NCBI GenBank assembly: GCA_964505635.1
Contig: CAZDIP010000001.1
Span: 222,412 to 286,411, forward strand
DNA from: an uncultured Candidatus Saccharibacteria bacterium
GTDB taxonomy: Bacteria; Patescibacteriota; Doudnabacteria; UBA920
DNA length: 64,000 bases
Direction: 5' to 3'
The position numbers were made by a program, and so were the translations under genes. Below, piece after piece: positions 26,295 through 39,815 of the stretch; positions within the stretch are counted from its first letter, which is position 1; every line of letters starts with the position of its first letter. The notes below the pieces were generated by a model. That model made no database searches, was not told where the DNA came from, and saw only the letters and a list, made by a program, of their open reading frames with translations.

Positions 26295-26315
26295 ATAAAC
26301 CCGCCAACTTTTGGT

Positions 26316-26391
26316 GCCGATGTAGCTCAGCTGGTAGAGCATCTCCATGGTAAGGAGAAGGTCTCCGGTTCAATCCCGGACATCGGCTCCA
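26316..26391 (+). tRNA. tRNA-Thr (GGU), CCA encoded
   Basis: A canonical cloverleaf: acceptor GCCGATG/CATCGGC, anticodon loop ATGGTAA, T-loop TTCAATC. An 8-bp long-range inverted repeat flanks it (cccgccaa 26301 / ttggcggg 26397). Confidence 0.9.
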
Positions 26392-26471
26392 GAAAATTGG
26401 CGGGTTTTTGTTTTTGTTGTATAATTCATTCATACGGCTCGCATGCCAAATAAACTTTAATTTTATAAAAT

Positions 26472-27038: not shown

Positions 27039-27123
27039 TGGTGGGCGGTGCAGGACTCGAACCTGCGAAGCCGTAAGGCACCTGATTTACAGTCAGGTGT
27101 AATTGCCGCTATACGAACCGCCC
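27039..27123 (-). tRNA. tRNA-Tyr (GUA), type II with long variable arm, CCA encoded
   Basis: The reverse complement gives acceptor GGGCGGT/ACCGCCC, anticodon loop CTGTAAA, a 14-nt variable arm and T-loop TTCGAGT. Confidence 0.85.
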
Positions 27124-27926
27124 ATACTTGTAAATTTTTTAAGTCTCTCTTCGTGTTTTTTGTTCTTAAAACCTATCTCGGTGATATATTTATTTATGTC
27201 CGATTTTCTGGTTAAGTATACACTATGTACACTAATTTTGGAAGGGCTGAAGTTTAGGTTTAAAAATGCCTGTCTAACATCCGCGAGCAGAAGTTTTGAA
27301 AGGTTGGAAAAAGAAATTTGTACCCCTTTATGCATTTTATAGACCGATCCGTCCGTATCGATTAAACCCCTTAAAACAGATTTTAAATATACTTTCCTCT
27401 TAAAAATCCAGGCAGGTATTTTAACCTGTGATTTGGTTTTATTATGAGCCATCCCTTGCCCTAAAAGCCATTTAACCGCTACTGAAGAGCCAAAATACAC
27501 AACTTGGTCGCCCCTTTTAGTGATAATTGTTTTTGGCTTTGAATTAAATACCTTTTTCATTAATTCTGAAACATGCGGGGCATACTTATCTTTTGTGCCT
27601 AACGTAACCGTGACTTGGGTTTTAGTAATATGACCGTCTCCTAAAATTATGCCTATTAATTCAGCTAAATCGCCGGAATATTTTTTTGGCAAAATAATAT
27701 TTTTATTTATATTATTATATCCGGCTTTTTTATCACGTAAAGTTTTTATATTTAGCCTAACTAATCTGTCATAAACGCTATTCTCTGCTAAGTCTAATAT
27801 TTTTGCAATCTCGTTTATGGCTTTATTTTGTTTGACATATAGAAATACAAGCTGTTGCTTGTTTTTTAAACATTCTTGTCTTGTCCATTTTCTGGCCATA
27901 TTTAGATAATATGTAAAAATTGACAT
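27093..27926 (-). CDS. LAGLIDADG homing endonuclease with N-terminal HTH domain (free-standing)
   Basis: It has two LAGLIDADG motifs (LIGIILGDGHI, LRGLIDTDGSV) and an N-terminal HTH (AINEIAKILDLAENSVYDRL). The 3' end overlaps the first 31 nt of tRNA-Tyr. Confidence 0.75.
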   Translation of the reverse strand: MSIFTYYLNMARKWTRQECLKNKQQLVFLYVKQNKAINEIAKILDLAENSVYDRLVRLNIKTLRDKKAGYNNINKNIILPKKYSGDLAELIGIILGDGHITKTQVTVTLGTKDKYAPHVSELMKKVFNSKPKTIITKRGDQVVYFGSSVAVKWLLGQGMAHNKTKSQVKIPAWIFKRKVYLKSVLRGLIDTDGSVYKMHKGVQISFSNLSKLLLADVRQAFLNLNFSPSKISVHSVYLTRKSDINKYITEIGFKNKKHEERLKKFTSMGGSYSGNYT

Positions 27927-29337: not shown

Positions 29338-30378
29338 TTATATTTTACTATTTTTTAATGCTTGTAAATATTCTTGGGTTATACCTGGGCACAACATTCT
29401 AATTAGTGAAAAAGTTTTTTCTTCATACTCCGCCCAATCAGCCTGTTTAACTGCCGTCTGAGGCGCAGATAAAAATTCAGAAGCTTTTTTTAGCCAGACG
29501 TCATAGGGCCTCATGTAGGCCTCTTTGTCATACCACCCAAAAATACCTTCTTTACGCAAGGCTGACAGACTTAGCAAAGCAACATCCACGTTTTTTAATT
29601 CCAGCCCTTCCGCCCCCTGGCTATTGTTTGCCAAGTATACCAGACCCTTTGTTTTTTTAACATCTAGCCGGTCGGTAGGCGGCTGCCAAACTAAATAGGA
29701 AACAGACTCGCTTTTTACCGCCCCGGGATTTGTGGCAGTATTTTCGTACAGAGAATCTACAAGAATCAATTCGACGTCTTTTAAAAGATGACGGCTAACA
29801 GCTTCGGGGTACTTAAAAAGGCTATCCTTTATATCCCGCGCCCCGTCACGCAAAGCTTTAATTCCGCTAATAGGTTTAACAACGAAACTTCGACCGCTCT
29901 TTTCTTCCTTATAGGAATTCCCGGGTCTGGGAATAAGCATATCCACGCCAAACTGATTGACCAAGACCTCTGTCTCCCTTCTGACGGTTTCGTTCCACTT
30001 TTGAGAGGCTTCCATGTCTCTGCCGTAATCTAAAGCAAATTTCAAACCAGAACCGGCCGCCAAAGAAGCTGCGCCGGCAGCCAAACCTGACGCAAATCTC
30101 CTACGGTTTACCGGATTGCGTGAATGTTCTTCCGATTTTACTTCGGCAATTTGATTAGATCTTAAAAGCAAGCGCTCGGACTGCTCTGGGGTAAGACTGC
30201 CGCGGTTAGATTCAACAAATTTTTTAAAACGCCCTCTAACCTTTGACTCTATAAGCTTTCCGGATGTTGCTTTTAATATGTTGCCCAAATAATCAGACTG
30301 CGGCTTAGTGCTTGGATTTGCTTTTTTTGGCAAGTCTTCATCTGGCTCTTCATCAAGTTGATATATTTTTTCAGACAT
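29338..30378 (-). CDS. Hypothetical protein
   Basis: A 346-aa protein with an internal RRRFASGLAAGAASLAAG stretch and no recognised domain. Confidence 0.35.
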   Translation of the reverse strand: MSEKIYQLDEEPDEDLPKKANPSTKPQSDYLGNILKATSGKLIESKVRGRFKKFVESNRGSLTPEQSERLLLRSNQIAEVKSEEHSRNPVNRRRFASGLAAGAASLAAGSGLKFALDYGRDMEASQKWNETVRRETEVLVNQFGVDMLIPRPGNSYKEEKSGRSFVVKPISGIKALRDGARDIKDSLFKYPEAVSRHLLKDVELILVDSLYENTATNPGAVKSESVSYLVWQPPTDRLDVKKTKGLVYLANNSQGAEGLELKNVDVALLSLSALRKEGIFGWYDKEAYMRPYDVWLKKASEFLSAPQTAVKQADWAEYEEKTFSLIRMLCPGITQEYLQALKNSKI

Positions 30379-30566
30379 AAATACTTAATAAATATAGCAT
30401 TTTTCATGCGAAAAACCAATTTTACACATAAATAGATATATTGATTTATATTATACTTTATGTTAAAATATTCAAAGTAAGCTTTCATATTTGCCTGCAT
30501 TAGCTTCCGCCAAAGCGGACAGGCATCCGGTAGGAAAAAGGTTTTGTTCGCCCCGTCACTTTTCTG

Positions 30567-30756
30567 GCCAGCTTAGCTCATCTGGTAGAGCAACGGTTTT
30601 ACCTGCCCGCCAGTCGCCGAGTGCCGATGTAGCTCAGTTGGTAGAGCAACGGTTTTGTAAACCGTAGGTCGTCGGTTCAAACCCGACCATCGGCTCCAGG
30701 CGATCGGCAGGCGGGTAAACCGTAGGTGGCCGGTTCGAGTCCGGCAGCTGGCTCCA
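30567..30756 (+). tRNA. Split/intron-containing tRNA-Thr-like gene (outer), reconstructed anticodon UGU, CCA encoded
   Basis: Acceptor GCCAGCT (30567-73) / AGCTGGC (30746-52); D-arm 30576-91; anticodon stem ACGGT (30593-97) / ACCGT (30719-23); T-arm GCCGG-TTCGAGT-CCGGC (30729-45). A 114-nt insertion at 30601-30714 lies between anticodon positions 34 and 35. Joining the two parts restores the loop TTT|GTAA. Confidence 0.6.
30623..30698 (+). tRNA. tRNA-Thr (UGU), intact, nested inside the outer tRNA's insertion, CCA encoded
   Basis: Acceptor GCCGATG/CATCGGC, D-arm GCTCAGTTGGTAGAGC, anticodon loop TTTGTAA, T-arm GTCGG-TTCAAAC-CCGAC. Confidence 0.9.
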
Positions 30757-30889
30757 CTGCTTCGTCCGCCTAAGGCGGACTACGCAGTGCAAGCACATCG
30801 TTTTAAAGGATCAAGCGATGTAAATAAGACTGCCTGACGCCCAGGCAATCTGTACTAATCACTATTCACTAACAACTAATCGCTAGAAT

Positions 30890-31057
30890 ATGTCTCAAGA
30901 TCATTTACTTAACATGGAGTGCTCGGTTTGCCACAATATTAATTACCAAACCAAGCGCAACAAAAAAAGTTTGGGCGCGCAAAACAAAAAGCGCCTTGAA
31001 TTGCAAAAATATTGTAAGCACTGCAAAAAAAAGACTTTACACAAGGAAACGAAATAG
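30890..31057 (+). CDS. rpmG: 50S ribosomal protein L33
   Basis: A 55-aa ORF below the ORF-track cutoff. It has the pattern CSVCHNINYQTKRNKK...LELQKYCKHCKKKTLHKETK (C4 zinc ribbon, KNK, LELKKYC..TLH.E.K). Confidence 0.8.
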   Translation: MSQDHLLNMECSVCHNINYQTKRNKKSLGAQNKKRLELQKYCKHCKKKTLHKETK

Positions 31058-31133
31058 TTTAACTAATGACCGATAATTAATAACTTATAACTGGTTGCTT
31101 GTTATAAATTATAAGTTATCGGTTTATTACTTG

Positions 31134-31158
31134 GGGGGCGTCGTATAATGGTAGTATC
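31134..31158 (+). other. 5' tRNA-like fragment (acceptor strand + D-arm), near-duplicate of the tRNA-Trp 5' end
   Basis: GGGGGCG-TC-GTATAATGGTAGTAT matches the Trp sequence GGGGGGT-TC-GTATAACGGTAGTAC. Its acceptor strand GGGGGCG is complementary to CGCCCCT at 31408-14. Confidence 0.5.
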
Positions 31159-31241
31159 CGCCGACGCTAAAGCTGTAGCGGACAAGCAGCGGTCTCCGCC
31201 CCGCCTTTACAAACTTAAATATTATCTCCACGGCATCTGGT

Positions 31242-31315
31242 GGGGGGTTCGTATAACGGTAGTACAATGGTCTCCAAAACCATTTGCGAGGGTTCGACTC
31301 CTTCACCCCCTGCCA
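31242..31315 (+). tRNA. tRNA-Trp (CCA), CCA encoded
   Basis: Acceptor GGGGGGT/ACCCCCT (1G-72U), 3-bp D-stem, anticodon stem ATGGT/ACCAT with loop CTCCAAA, T-arm GAGGG-TTCGACT-CCTTC. Confidence 0.85.
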
Positions 31316-31390
31316 AACGCCGCGGAGCTATATTTCGGCCAATAAACCAAAACCGATTGCGTGCTTGCCCGACGAAGTCTTAACGAAGTC

Positions 31391-31418
31391 GGGGGTTCAA
31401 TTCCTACCGCCCCTGCCA
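31391..31418 (+). other. 3' tRNA-like fragment (T-arm + acceptor 3' strand + discriminator + CCA)
   Basis: GGGGG-TTCAATT-CCTAC-CGCCCCT-G-CCA, with one T-stem mismatch. It pairs with the 5' fragment at 31135-41. Confidence 0.5.
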
Positions 31419-31420
31419 AA

Positions 31421-31450
31421 AAAGTCCCGCTTAGCTGCGGGTCTTTTTTG
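31421..31450. terminator. Rho-independent terminator closing the rpmG-tRNA cluster
   Basis: An A-run, then stem cccgc/gcggg with loop ttagct, then a T6 tract. Confidence 0.6.
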
Positions 31451-31512
31451 TATACCCTTGTGGGTGTTCAAAACTTTTAATGTTATAATTTAATAAAGCA
31501 AATTTAACAAAA

Positions 31513-31995
31513 ATGATTAAAGCAATTTTGTCTGATTTCTCAGAGACAATTCTATTCCCAAAAAATATAAAAAATCATCATAATCTCAACGGCTTACACC
31601 ATGAACTAATGAGAGAGTATGGCGAATACAATGCTTGGGATTATTTTGTAATTAACGAGGAGTTGCTTAATTTTTACCAATCTCTTAAACCACAGTTGCC
31701 GTTATATGTTTTTACAACAGATACTGTCCAAGACCAACCACAAATAAAAGAACGGTTACTGGAAATTTTTGATGATGTTATTTCAGCTAAAGTCTATAAG
31801 ATTGACAAAAAAACACCTGAGGCTTATCAATTCATAGCACAAAAAATAAATCAAAACTCAGAGGAAATTTTATTTATTGATGATAGAGAAATTAATTTAG
31901 AACCTGCTACAAAGGCAGGGTTTCAAACACTACAATACATAGATAACGAGCAGTTGGTTAAAGATATTAAAAAACTAATTAACAGCCAAACTTAA
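31513..31995 (+). CDS. HAD-superfamily hydrolase
   Basis: A small protein with a C-terminal LFIDD motif (HAD motif IV). Confidence 0.45.
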   Translation: MIKAILSDFSETILFPKNIKNHHNLNGLHHELMREYGEYNAWDYFVINEELLNFYQSLKPQLPLYVFTTDTVQDQPQIKERLLEIFDDVISAKVYKIDKKTPEAYQFIAQKINQNSEEILFIDDREINLEPATKAGFQTLQYIDNEQLVKDIKKLINSQT

Positions 31996-32146
31996 CGCTG
32001 CTAACTCGATTTCTAACTCTTCAAGGCTCACAGTTCTAACCACATCCCACAGCCCTGCCATAAAAAACCTATCGGTTACCCGCATAGGTTTTTTATGATG
32101 GAATCTTTAACAAATGCTATAATATATAAAATAATTAATAATAATT

Positions 32147-37475: not shown

Positions 37476-37634
37476 ACCCCGCACCACTTTTATCAAATTT
37501 CAGCTACCGTCAAATTTAACATTTGATAAATTTTTGATAGTAAACAGCTCTGTTTAAAAGTGCGAGGGGTAAAGCGGGCTTTTTCGTAGATCCTCCGTAG
37601 CTTTAGCAAAGGAGGATTTGTTATACTAAATAAT

Positions 37635-39561: not shown

Positions 39562-39815
39562 AAAATCCATAAAATTAAAACGCCCGATTTATACTCTAGA
39601 CATAACGGGCGTTTTAATCAGGTTTACTCTGGATTCCGGCCTTCCGCCGGTTGGCGGAAGGCCGCGGGATGACATGTTGGCCTTGAATTACGAAACTCAA
39701 TATTGTTCGACTTTCCGCCAAAGGCGGACAGGTAAGGAGAATGATATCGAGTAATTAAGCCAAAATTTTAGATTCTCCACAAGTTCGAAAACTAAAATTT
39801 TTCTGTTTCGTGTAT

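What the first reader, a model, noticed from the sequence alone, without database searches (positions are those of the whole stretch)
31134..31418. tRNA-Trp(CCA) bracketed by the 5' and 3' halves of a second tRNA-like gene
A 25-nt segment (31134-58, GGGGGCG-UC-GUAUAAUGGUAGUAU) duplicates the acceptor strand and D-arm of the downstream tRNA-Trp at 17 of 18 positions in the D-arm. A 28-nt segment 75 nt after tRNA-Trp (31391-31418, GGGGG-UUCAAUU-CCUAC-CGCCCCU-G-CCA) is a T-arm plus acceptor 3' strand plus CCA. Its acceptor strand is exactly complementary to the upstream fragment, including the same 1G-72U wobble that tRNA-Trp uses. A complete tRNA-Trp with its flanks (31159-31390) therefore sits where the outer gene's anticodon arm should be. 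This mirrors the tRNA-Thr case 0.5 kb upstream. Two adjacent instances suggest a shared mechanism, either insertion or replacement of a tRNA gene inside itself, or an unusual processing architecture. The outer copy has one T-stem mismatch and no evident anticodon arm, so it may be less functional than the Thr case.
Basis: seen in the sequence. Interest (0 to 1): 0.72.

Follow-up and report, generated by a model that had tools for sequence, protein, structure and literature searches.

The report
Dead tRNA-Trp shell around working copy
The two tRNA-like pieces are the remains of an older tryptophan tRNA gene, split when a small DNA cassette carrying a replacement tRNA-Trp gene landed in its anticodon; the same nesting recurs across related ultra-small bacteria, often beside a selfish-looking nuclease gene.

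Summary
The window comes from a Patescibacteria (Doudnabacteria-like) genome.

The outer gene survives as four pieces: 31134-31156, 31187-31197, 31347-31363 and 31394-31418. Joined, they form a tRNA-Trp(CCA) cloverleaf that is 72/74 identical to the intact tRNA-Trp of relatives.

Three insertions interrupt it:
- two 30-nt GC-rich hairpin elements, in the D stem and the T stem;
- a 149-nt cassette inside the anticodon, carrying the intact tRNA-Trp (31242-31315), which is a different allele.

The outer copy is almost certainly a dead shell. No known bacterial mechanism would remove three inserts, two of which lie inside stems. The shell also carries an uncompensated G·A mismatch. Outer copies in relatives decay in different ways, and an intact inner tRNA is always present.

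Nested or flanking fragments of tRNA-Trp and tRNA-Thr occur in roughly a fifth of syntenic relatives, sometimes in several layers. In nine contexts an 81-92-aa GIY-YIG nuclease ORF directly abuts an intact tRNA-Trp, usually inside such a shell. I infer serial invasion by cassettes that carry their own replacement tRNA. The insertion mechanism is not shown.

The parts
31134..31156 (+). Outer (older) tRNA-Trp, piece 1: acceptor 5' strand, positions 8-9 and most of the D arm (gene positions 1-23).
   Evidence: 100% match to positions 1-23 of the intact tRNA-Trp of L001/L004. Unique in the window.
31157..31186 (-). 30-nt GC-rich hairpin element (ins1), inserted in the 3' strand of the D stem. On the minus strand it reads CTTGTCCGCTACAGCTTTAGCGTCGGCGGA.
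   Evidence: nhmmer E=5.5e-6 to the hairpin family with the conserved core GAAGCTTTAGCGAAG. A homologous element sits at the same position in L047.
31187..31197 (+). Outer tRNA-Trp, piece 2: CAGCGGTCTCC. This is the end of the D stem, the anticodon stem 5' strand and the loop through the second C of the anticodon.
   Evidence: Identical to positions 24-34 of the L004 tRNA-Trp. Aligned with the same piece in L047, L005, L057 and L002.
31198..31241 (+). Left flank of the inserted cassette: GCCCCGCC, an AT-rich stretch, then the leader CTCCACGGCATCTGGT.
   Evidence: Homologous to the left flanks in L047 and L005. The first bases match the left arm of the CCCCGCC hairpin found at the same anticodon site in L001, L083 and L094. 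CTCC-CGGC pairs with GCCG-GGAG in the right flank.
31242..31315 (+). Inner, intact tRNA-Trp(CCA): the working gene. It is allele 'B' (GGGGGGT...ACCCCCT).
   Evidence: ARAGORN. Rfam tRNA 59 bits, E 1e-11. The same allele occurs un-nested in L012 and L018. It shows compensatory stem changes relative to the L047 inner gene.
31316..31346 (+). Right flank of the cassette: AACGCCGCGGAG...TTTCGGCCAATAAA.
   Evidence: Aligns with the GCTTCGGCGG(G/A)CA(G/A)G end of the cassette in L047, L057 and L002. It is degenerate in the window.
31347..31363 (+). Outer tRNA-Trp, piece 3: CCAAAACCGATTGCGTG. This is the anticodon CCA, the anticodon stem 3' strand, the variable loop and the first 3 nt of the T stem.
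   Evidence: 16/17 identical to positions 33-49 of the L004 tRNA-Trp. The single difference creates a G-A mismatch in the anticodon stem.
31364..31393 (+). 30-nt hairpin element (ins3) inserted in the T stem: CTTG-CCCGAC-GAAGTCTTAACGAAG-TCGGG.
   Evidence: The perfect 6-bp stem pattern is unique in the window. It is a weak member of the hairpin family, with close copies in L006 93-120 and L009 2710-2737.
31394..31418 (+). Outer tRNA-Trp, piece 4: rest of the T arm, acceptor 3' strand, discriminator G and CCA.
   Evidence: Positions 49-74 are 96% identical to the L004 tRNA-Trp. Unique in the window.
31426..31449 (+). Intrinsic-terminator-like hairpin plus T run, directly after the outer 3' end. 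This is the original terminator of the locus.
   Evidence: Terminators lie at the equivalent place after the intact gene in L032 and after the outer 3' piece in L047.
30567..30756 (+). Sister case. The outer tRNA-Thr(TGT) (30567-30600 plus 30715-30756) is split inside the anticodon by a 114-nt cassette that carries the inner tRNA-Thr(TGT) at 30623-30698.
   Evidence: ARAGORN -io. Fold z-score -5.2. The outer halves are 100% identical to the intact genes of L003 and L031. The cassette flanks are shared with L014 and L032.
30493..30559 (+). Outermost, third-layer remnant of a still older tRNA-Thr. It comprises acceptor and D-arm pieces around a hairpin at 30506-30523, then GGTTTTGT, then the cassette flank TCGCCCCGTCAC.
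   Evidence: The same flank (CTCGCCCCGTCAC) bounds a nested layer in L031.

Best explanation
**What it is (shown).** The region 31134-31418 is the orthologous, older tRNA-Trp gene of this Doudnabacteria-like genome, and it is no longer one gene. It is cut into four pieces by three insertions. Two are 30-nt GC-rich hairpin elements, in the D stem and the T stem. The third is a 149-nt cassette inside the anticodon that carries a complete tRNA-Trp of a different allele, with its own paired leader and trailer.

**How the locus works now (inferred).** The locus is probably transcribed from an upstream promoter to the original terminator at 31426-31449. The inner tRNA would be cut out by the normal tRNA-processing enzymes. 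The outer pieces would be only leader and trailer sequence and would not yield a tRNA.

**How it arose (inferred).** The cassette belongs to a family of short elements with GC-rich inverted ends. These land in the loops of tRNA genes in this bacterial group. A copy that carries an intact, co-oriented tRNA of the same identity can land in the single essential gene without killing the host, because it brings the replacement with it. The split halves of the old gene flank the insert. They could then act as homology arms that copy the insert into any intact tRNA-Trp allele by recombination.

In several relatives the same kind of nest still holds a small GIY-YIG nuclease gene immediately upstream of the inner tRNA-Trp. 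I therefore think the window's cassette is a version that has lost its nuclease gene. Repeated rounds of invasion would leave the layered shells seen here at tRNA-Thr and in relatives.

The enzyme and the chemistry of insertion are not established.
For: **Anatomy**
- The four pieces joined give a tRNA-Trp(CCA) cloverleaf. It is 72/74 identical to the intact gene of L004/L030 and 61/74 identical to the inner gene.
- The break is inside the anticodon, with complementary breakpoints.

**Recurrence**
- L047, L005, L057 and L002 share the same breakpoint and homologous insert ends but carry different inner tRNAs.
- L047 also has the same hairpin at the same D-stem position.
- Among 74 syntenic loci, 6 have Trp nests and 6 have Thr nests. 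About 13 more have only a 5' or only a 3' fragment.
- L031 and the window's Thr locus have several layers.
- The alleles nest reciprocally. B lies inside A in the window; A lies inside a shell with a B-type acceptor strand in L006.

**The outer gene is dispensable**
- Every interrupted copy has an intact copy with the same anticodon.
- Outer copies are truncated or mismatched in L002, L005, L006, L014, L032 and L057.

**Element-like features**
- The junction GGTTTTG|CCTGYCCGCC occurs 8 times, in tRNA-Thr on the top strand and in tRNA-Trp on the bottom strand.
- The hairpin family has many copies in both orientations.
- The Thr cassette flanks are 36/37 identical in all three pairwise comparisons among W, L014 and L032. 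Their rpmG genes are only 70-75% identical at the nucleotide level.

**Nuclease link**
- A GIY-YIG ORF lies inside the L006 nest (Pfam E 3e-15).
- In all 9 contexts examined (L006, L083, L084, L088, L090, L094, L096, L097, L098) the ORF ends between -15 and +17 nt from an intact tRNA-Trp. These span four kinds of gene neighbourhood.
- Six have a clear tRNA-Trp 5' fragment plus a CCCCGCC hairpin upstream of the ORF; L084 has a more broken version.
- L094 and L096 are complete nests: 5' fragment, hairpin, ORF, intact tRNA, 3' fragment.
- The window's left junction GGTCTCCgCCCCGCCT matches the hairpin junction of L001, L083 and L094.

**Not an artefact**
- The same architecture appears in independent assemblies from different studies.
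Against: - No nuclease, transposase or integrase gene lies in or near the window's nest. Thirty window ORFs scanned were housekeeping, apart from a LAGLIDADG ORF beside tRNA-Tyr.
- The apparent target duplications are inconsistent: 1-2 nt in the window and L047, 4 nt (TCCA) for the CCCCGCC hairpin, and about 10 nt in L094. No single transposition chemistry fits these.
- In L094 and L047 the inner and outer sequences are identical. A site-specific nuclease would therefore also cut the inner copy, unless immunity works in some other way.
- The outer pieces in the window are almost unmutated: 2/74 changes for Trp and 0/76 for Thr. The Thr cassette flanks are better conserved than the tRNA they enclose. 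This could mean recent insertion or gene conversion, but it could also hint at an unrecognised function.
- No clean empty-site versus filled-site pair with conserved flanks was obtained.
- No expression data are available.
Confidence: 0.78

Rival explanations
1. The nest is a functional architecture. The outer tRNA-Trp is a real gene whose inserts, including a whole tRNA, are removed from the RNA by an unknown splicing or processing pathway. One transcript would then give two tRNAs.
For: The outer pieces are nearly intact in sequence and fold back into a cloverleaf when joined. The Thr nest folds as a perfect nested cloverleaf. The Thr cassette flanks are very well conserved. Introns in tRNA genes are common in Patescibacteria (PMC13011429).
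Against: - Three separate inserts would have to be removed, two of them inside stems.
- No group I intron or other Rfam hit was found, and the non-tRNA part of the insert is only 44+31 nt.
- The folds show no bulge-helix-bulge motif.
- The outer anticodon stem has an uncompensated G-A mismatch.
- Outer copies in relatives lack acceptor strands or carry further inserts, yet keep the same cassette.
- The outer gene would duplicate the anticodon of the intact inner gene.
Confidence: 0.04
2. The pieces are classical attachment-site scars. A phage or integrative element used a tyrosine integrase to integrate into tRNA-Trp, duplicating part of the gene, and the element was later almost entirely deleted.
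For: tRNA genes are the usual integration sites, and partial copies are common scars (PMC9897764). Some relatives do show only 3' fragments that start in the T loop or anticodon loop (L004, L013, L029, L030, L024). That pattern fits integrase-type duplication.
Against: - In the window the flanking pieces are complementary parts of one gene (1-35 upstream, 34-74 downstream). They are not a direct repeat of the same segment.
- No identity block is shared between the two junctions.
- The intact copy is a different allele along its whole length.
- No integrase lies nearby.
- A 5' fragment upstream is not what 3'-restoring integration produces.
Confidence: 0.05
3. The nest arose by local duplication and decay without any mobile element. 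For example, a tandem triplication of tRNA-Trp was followed by loss of the 3' half of the first copy and the 5' half of the third.
For: In L047 and L094 the outer pieces are identical to the inner gene, as expected after in-genome duplication. L088 shows tandem pseudo-copies.
Against: - Two independent deletions would have to end at the same anticodon nucleotide, and the same breakpoint recurs in five genomes.
- In the window, L002, L006 and L096 the inner and outer genes are different alleles.
- The insert ends are conserved and are shared with the Thr nests.
Confidence: 0.08
4. The nest is an assembly artefact: a metagenome assembler mis-joined two strain variants of tRNA-Trp.
For: The window is probably from a metagenome-assembled genome. 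Two alleles (A and B) do circulate in the clade.
Against: The junctions contain unique non-tRNA sequence and hairpin elements rather than simple variant joins. The same architecture is found in independent assemblies from other studies and samples: L047, L005, L057 and L002 for Trp, and L014, L032 and L046 for Thr.
Confidence: 0.02

Closest known systems
Partial tRNA genes left by integrative elements (attL/attR scars; Williams 2002; PMC9897764)
   Same: tRNA gene fragments lie next to an intact copy. The cause is insertion of foreign DNA that compensates for the damage it does to an essential tRNA gene.
   Different: In attachment-site scars the element restores only the displaced 3' part, leaving one partial direct repeat kilobases away, and an integrase is present. 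Here a whole replacement gene sits inside the old gene, with fragments on both sides, within about 290 nt and with no integrase.
Free-standing GIY-YIG homing endonuclease SegB in the phage T4 tRNA gene cluster (PMC2330249)
   Same: A small GIY-YIG nuclease gene lies next to tRNA genes. The proposed spread is by cleavage of the allele that lacks it, followed by recombinational copying of the nuclease gene together with adjacent tRNA sequence.
   Different: SegB sits between intact genes and leaves no split gene. Here the ORF (in relatives) lies inside a broken tRNA-Trp together with a full replacement copy. The protein is an 81-92-aa UPF0213-type catalytic domain only, and no cleavage activity is known for it.
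Group I introns in tRNA anticodon loops of Patescibacteria (PMC13011429)
   Same: Same phylum, same target (the anticodon loop of tRNA genes) and the same detection problem for standard tRNA finders.
   Different: Group I introns restore the gene by self-splicing and need a ribozyme of roughly 200 nt or more. This insert has no ribozyme and restores function by carrying a second gene.
Short palindromic repeat elements inserted into genes (REP/BIME, Rickettsia palindromic elements, Correia/MITEs). Recalled from general knowledge, not tested against a database.
   Same: The elements are 30 nt long, GC-rich and hairpin-forming, with no coding capacity. They occur in many copies in both orientations and are tolerated inside gene sequence.
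   Different: The copies here share a conserved core with differing, mutually complementary stems. They are concentrated in tRNA gene loops, and some enclose an entire tRNA gene.
Archaeal intron-containing, split and permuted tRNA genes (PMC4090602)
   Same: The tRNA genes are interrupted at the D, anticodon and T regions, and the halves pair through the acceptor stem.
   Different: The archaeal genes are the only copy and are repaired at the RNA level through bulge-helix-bulge motifs and a splicing endonuclease. None of those features is present here.

Membership tests
Integrase-type tRNA attachment-site scar | The same tRNA segment is present as a direct repeat at both ends of the insert (core identity block). 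| tested here: not met
   The outer pieces are complementary parts (1-35 and 34-74) and share at most CC.
Integrase-type tRNA attachment-site scar | A tyrosine or serine integrase gene is present and the inserted element is kilobases long. | tested here: not met
   The insert is 149 nt. Neighbouring ORFs are rpmG, a HAD hydrolase, DUF1761, AdoHcyase and similar.
Group I intron in a tRNA gene | A ribozyme core is detectable and of sufficient length. | tested here: not met
   No Intron_gpI hit even at E<=10. The non-tRNA part of the insert is 44+31 nt.
Group I intron in a tRNA gene | The interrupted gene is the functional copy for that anticodon. | tested here: not met
   An intact tRNA-Trp(CCA) lies inside the insert. 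The outer gene has two further inserts in stems.
Archaeal-type (bulge-helix-bulge) tRNA intron or split tRNA | A bulge-helix-bulge motif (3-nt bulge, 4-bp helix, 3-nt bulge) lies at each exon-insert junction. | tested here: not met
   The predicted folds give continuous helices or simple hairpins at the junctions. Two junctions lie inside stems.
Archaeal-type (bulge-helix-bulge) tRNA intron or split tRNA | A splicing endonuclease and an RNA ligase are encoded in the genome. | not testable with these tools
   Only 64 kb of the genome is available. None of the 30 ORFs scanned is such an enzyme.
Short palindromic repeat / MITE-like element (for ins1, ins3 and the cassette ends) | Short, non-coding, with inverted-repeat or hairpin structure. 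| tested here: met
   30 nt each, with stems TCCGC/GCGGA and CCCGAC/GTCGGG.
Short palindromic repeat / MITE-like element (for ins1, ins3 and the cassette ends) | Multiple related copies at unrelated sites and in both orientations. | tested here: met
   More than 20 nhmmer hits in 375 kb, on both strands and in several genomes, including window 37590-37616. The end motif CCTGYCCGCC occurs 14 times.
Short palindromic repeat / MITE-like element (for ins1, ins3 and the cassette ends) | A target-site duplication of fixed length and a cognate transposase. | tested here: inconclusive
   There is no consistent duplication. The elements sit 3' of TG. No transposase was found in the part of the window that was scanned.
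Homing-endonuclease-driven element (intronless homing) | A nuclease gene lies within or next to the inserted DNA. | tested here: not met
   For the window: tblastn with the GIY-YIG and ORF220 proteins finds nothing. In relatives the feature is met: L006, L083, L094 and L096 carry a GIY-YIG ORF inside the nest.
Homing-endonuclease-driven element (intronless homing) | The nuclease cleaves the uninterrupted target allele, and the insert disrupts that site. | not testable with these tools
   This needs a biochemical cleavage assay.

The most novel reading that the evidence does not exclude
Patescibacterial tRNA genes (Trp, Thr and perhaps others) are serially overwritten by a previously undescribed class of selfish cassette. 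The cassette avoids the need for splicing by carrying its own intact copy of the tRNA gene it disrupts, sometimes together with a minimal GIY-YIG nuclease. It uses the two halves of the broken gene as universal homology arms to home into any intact allele. Successive invasions would leave layered shells, of which 31134-31418 is one.
Probability: 0.4. Interest if true: 0.8.

Novelty: new variant of a known kind. Interest (0 to 1): 0.62.

Why it matters
- **A different way to invade an essential gene.** If the inference holds, this is an alternative to self-splicing introns and inteins and to integrases that restore the 3' end. The mobile DNA brings a whole replacement gene and leaves the old one as a shell.
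- **Rapid tRNA turnover in reduced genomes.** It would explain why tRNA loci in these very small genomes change so quickly between close relatives. It would also explain how different tRNA-Trp alleles replace one another laterally.
- **A testable role for an uncharacterised protein family.** It assigns a concrete hypothesis to the widespread UPF0213 mini GIY-YIG proteins.
- **Annotation.** Standard tRNA finders miss the shells. With intron options switched on, they can miscall the shells or build chimeras between neighbouring genes.

Tried and rejected
- **Rfam scans.** A scan of 30000-32000 at E<=10 and of the whole window at gathering threshold found only the four ordinary tRNAs. No intron or other RNA family was detected.
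- **ARAGORN with introns allowed.** It finds the outer Thr but not the outer Trp, because of the extra inserts. It also produces chimeras between adjacent similar tRNAs in relatives, so it cannot be used alone.
- **IS608-like TTAC target.** The minus strand of the Thr anticodon loop reads TTAC at the break. I dropped this idea because the recurrent junction is TG|CYTG-hairpin and no Y1 transposase was seen.
- **Bulge-helix-bulge reading of the junctions.** Not supported by the folds.
- **Scan of viral contigs for GGTTTTGCCTGYCCGCC.** It gave nine hits, all in coding DNA and none near a tRNA gene (ARAGORN found none), so I take them as chance matches.
- **Exact-protein look-up of the window's L33.** Intended to find near-identical strains and test presence/absence variation; the protein is not on record.
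- **Empty-site versus filled-site alignments** (L007/L006, L032/L047). The gene ends are at orthologous places, but the flanks are too diverged for a clean demonstration.
- **Group I intron check of the long inserts in Thr(GGT) of L054 and L060.** No Rfam hit at gathering threshold.
- **Literature searches** for nested tRNA genes, tRNA remnants in Patescibacteria and GIY-YIG with tRNA-Trp. No description of this arrangement was found.
- **Not covered.** Only 30 of about 67 window ORFs were scanned against Pfam.
Full report
**Context**

The window is a chromosomal stretch of a Patescibacteria genome. The L33 (rpmG) gene at 30890-31057 lies between the two tRNA loci. Its closest relatives are in metagenome-assembled genomes labelled Doudnabacteria, Saccharibacteria or Patescibacteria.

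The gene order tRNA-Thr(TGT), rpmG, tRNA-Trp(CCA) is conserved in nearly all of 73 related loci fetched from genome and metagenome collections. Thirty window ORFs scanned against Pfam are housekeeping genes.

**Checking the observation**

They are unique in the window and have zero chance expectation.
- Their acceptor strands pair perfectly, including G1-U72.
- An intact tRNA-Trp lies between them.

Comparison with relatives shows the outer gene is more complete than described. It survives as four pieces:

| Piece | Coordinates |
|---|---|
| 1 | 31134-31156 |
| 2 | 31187-31197 |
| 3 | 31347-31363 |
| 4 | 31394-31418 |

Joined, the pieces give a 74-nt sequence that ARAGORN calls tRNA-Trp(CCA). 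It is 72/74 identical to the intact tRNA-Trp shared by L004 and L030, and 61/74 identical to the inner gene. The supposedly missing anticodon arm is present but split. The supposed T-stem mismatch disappears once the insert at 31364-31393 is recognised.

**What interrupts the outer gene**

1. *Hairpin at 31157-31186.* This 30-nt GC-rich hairpin lies in the 3' strand of the D stem. It belongs to a family with the conserved core GAAGCTTTAGCGAAG (nhmmer E 5.5e-6).
2. *Cassette at 31198-31346.* This 149-nt cassette lies inside the anticodon. The 5' part of the outer gene ends at C35 and the 3' part starts at C34. The cassette consists of a 44-nt left flank, the intact inner tRNA-Trp (31242-31315) and a 31-nt right flank. 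The parts of the two flanks next to the tRNA pair with each other.
3. *Hairpin at 31364-31393.* This second 30-nt hairpin lies in the T stem.

The only predicted terminator follows the outer 3' end. The only predicted promoter upstream of the tRNA loci lies before the Thr locus (a weaker promoter-like match at 30909-30937 falls inside rpmG). The inner tRNAs are therefore probably transcribed through the shells.

**Is the outer gene functional?**

Everything tested argues against it:
- Three inserts would have to be removed, two of them from within stems.
- There is no ribozyme and no bulge-helix-bulge motif.
- One of the two substitutions creates an uncompensated G-A pair in the anticodon stem.
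- Outer copies in relatives are in various states of decay. Acceptor strands are lost in L005 and L057. The halves are mismatched in L002 and L006. L002, L032 and L057 carry extra inserts.
- In all loci an intact tRNA with the same anticodon accompanies the broken one.
- The inner gene shows compensatory stem changes between genomes, as a working tRNA should.

**Recurrence in relatives**

- L047, L005, L057 and L002 have the break at the same anticodon position with homologous insert ends, but different inner tRNAs.
- L047 also carries the homologous hairpin at the same D-stem site.
- L001, the closest relative (rpmG 84% nucleotide identity), shares the outer allele, but it is broken differently. 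The replacement gene sits in the D loop and a pair of CCCCGCC hairpins sits in the anticodon loop.
- The alleles nest reciprocally. The window has B inside A; L006 has A inside a shell with a B-type acceptor strand.

The Thr locus behaves the same way:
- The window has an intact-looking outer tRNA-Thr split by a 114-nt cassette, plus a third, outermost remnant.
- L014 and L032 have the same cassette. The flanks are 36/37 identical in all three pairwise comparisons, although rpmG is only 70-75% identical and the inner tRNAs 87-92%. Their outer genes are decayed.
- L031 has at least three layers, including a tRNA-Thr(GGT) inserted in a T loop.

Across the 74 loci there are 6 Trp nests, 6 Thr nests, and about 13 further loci with fragments on one side only.

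**Clues to the mechanism**

*First clue: a shared element end and target.* The element end CCTGYCCGCC abuts GGTTTTG eight times. This occurs on the sense strand of tRNA-Thr and on the antisense strand of tRNA-Trp. Both anticodon arms contain CGGTTTTG on those strands. This explains why these two neighbouring genes are both hit. The cargo tRNA is co-oriented with the host gene in both cases. That is what survival of the host would require.

*Second clue: the inserts behave like repeated palindromic elements.* The small hairpins occur in many copies, in both orientations and in several genomes.

*Third clue: a linked nuclease gene.* The L006 nest contains an 82-aa GIY-YIG ORF. In all nine contexts I examined (L006, L083, L084, L088, L090, L094, L096, L097, L098) the ORF ends between 15 nt inside and 17 nt upstream of an intact tRNA-Trp. 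These contexts span four kinds of gene neighbourhood.
- Six of the nine have a clear tRNA-Trp 5' fragment followed by a CCCCGCC...GGCGGGG palindrome just upstream of the ORF; L084 has a more broken version with two hairpins.
- L094 and L096 are complete nests with the nuclease gene inside.
- The window's left junction, GGTCTCCgCCCCGCCT, matches the junction of that palindrome in L001, L083 and L094.

I therefore regard the window's cassette as a version that has probably lost its nuclease gene. The protein is of the uncharacterised UPF0213 type.

Other nuclease-like genes hug tRNA genes in this clade. One is a LAGLIDADG ORF overlapping the 5' end of tRNA-Tyr in the window. Another is the ORF220 family, which ends at the 5' end of tRNA-Trp, Thr or Tyr genes in relatives.

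**Interpretation**

*Shown:*
- The region is a broken older tRNA-Trp gene enclosing a different, intact tRNA-Trp gene plus two hairpin elements.
- The arrangement recurs in relatives with shared junctions.
- The shells decay.
- A GIY-YIG gene family is tightly linked to tRNA-Trp and to such shells.

*Inferred:*
- The cassettes are, or were, mobile.
- They can enter an essential single-copy tRNA gene because they carry a replacement.
- The gene halves serve as homology arms for spread.
- The nuclease drives this process.
- Loss of the nuclease gene and re-invasion produce the layers.

*Unresolved:*
- The insertion chemistry. The apparent target duplications are inconsistent.
- How the inner copy would escape a site-specific nuclease.
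- Why the Thr cassette flanks are more conserved than the tRNA they enclose.

**Comparison with known systems**

The nearest known things are:
- integrase attachment-site scars in tRNA genes (PMC9897764);
- the free-standing GIY-YIG endonuclease SegB in the T4 tRNA cluster (PMC2330249);
- group I introns in patescibacterial tRNA genes (PMC13011429);
- palindromic repeat elements;
- archaeal interrupted tRNA genes (PMC4090602).

The window fails the defining tests for attachment-site scars, group I introns and bulge-helix-bulge introns. It meets the structural tests for small palindromic elements. It only indirectly resembles homing-endonuclease elements.

Full-text searches found no description of tRNA genes nested in tRNA genes in bacteria.

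**Verdict**

The specific feature is a non-functional relic. It is a clear example of an apparently undescribed and recurrent way in which tRNA genes are replaced in Patescibacteria.

Noticed in passing
window 27096-27926 (-), next to tRNA-Tyr 27039-27123 (-): A 277-aa ORF with two LAGLIDADG motifs (Pfam LAGLIDADG_3, E 1.8e-12). It reads into the first 30 nt of the tRNA-Tyr gene. It looks like a free-standing homing-endonuclease gene placed right at a tRNA gene. It has no sequence relative in the PDB.
   Followed up: partly
L017 3238-3900, L025 3174-3899, L040, L051-L058, L039, L056, L060: A family of ORFs of about 220 aa has an N-terminal helix-turn-helix and one LAGLIDADG-like motif (LYWGEGSK). 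In 10 or more loci the ORF ends exactly at or inside the 5' end of a tRNA-Trp, Thr or Tyr gene. Pfam gives no confident hit.
   Followed up: partly
L006 547-795; L083, L084, L088, L090, L094, L096, L097 (ORF at about 1201-1750 in each locus): In all 9 contexts examined, 81-92-aa UPF0213-type GIY-YIG ORFs sit immediately upstream of an intact tRNA-Trp. They are usually preceded by a tRNA-Trp 5' fragment, a CCCCGCC...GGCGGGG palindrome and TCCAAAACC. A more distant subfamily sits just downstream of tRNA-Trp (L001 3704-3940, L061 2340-2576) or between tRNA-Tyr and tRNA-Thr (L054 669-860).
   Followed up: yes
window 31157-31186, 31364-31393, 37590-37616; simpler copies at 30506-30523, 30765-30779, 39643-39658, 39714-39732; many loci: A family of GC-rich hairpins shares the conserved core CG(A/T)AGCTTTAGCGAAG. 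The stems differ between copies but stay complementary (TCCGCC/GGCGGA, TCCTCC/GGAGGA, CACCC/GGGTG, CCCGAC/GTCGGG and others). Copies occur in both orientations, often right after tRNA-Thr or at gene ends. It is unclear whether this is an RNA motif, a protein-binding site or a REP-like element.
   Followed up: partly
window 30493-30756: The Thr locus has three layers: an outermost decayed 5' remnant, an intact-looking outer gene split in the anticodon, and the inner gene. The 37 nt of cassette flank are 36/37 identical in all three pairwise comparisons with L014 and L032. That is better conserved than the enclosed tRNA (87-92%) or rpmG (70-75%).
   Followed up: partly
window 26300-26410: tRNA-Thr(GGT) sits between the inverted repeats CCCGCCAAcTTTT and AAAATTGGCGGG, followed by a T run, so the tRNA lies in the loop of a terminator-like hairpin. 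In several relatives this tRNA lies in the Thr-Tyr-Thr cluster next to rpmG. In the window it is about 4 kb away, which may indicate a relocated cassette.
   Followed up: no
L054 965-1252, L052 979-1266, L060 1170-1423; L009 2420-2704: tRNA-Thr(GGT) is interrupted directly after the anticodon by about 200-230 nt. The 5' exon ends in T and the insert ends in G, and no intact copy is nearby. These are probably true group I introns, although Rfam gives no hit at gathering score. ARAGORN also reports a tRNA-Tyr with a 199-nt insert in L009.
   Followed up: partly
L004 3390-3516, L030 3320-3413, L013 3400-3693, L029 3300-3434: A GC-rich element of about 100 nt lies downstream of tRNA-Trp. It begins with an inverted copy of the T arm (TAGGAATCGAA; seen in L004, L013 and L030) and ends with a direct copy of the T-loop-to-CCA segment. 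It is duplicated in L013. It could be an integration scar or a small tRNA-derived RNA gene.
   Followed up: no
window 31069-31123: A long AT-rich hairpin with arms of about 23 bp lies between rpmG and the outer tRNA-Trp. It is conserved in L001, and analogous AT-rich hairpins occupy the same place in L002, L006 and L047.
   Followed up: no
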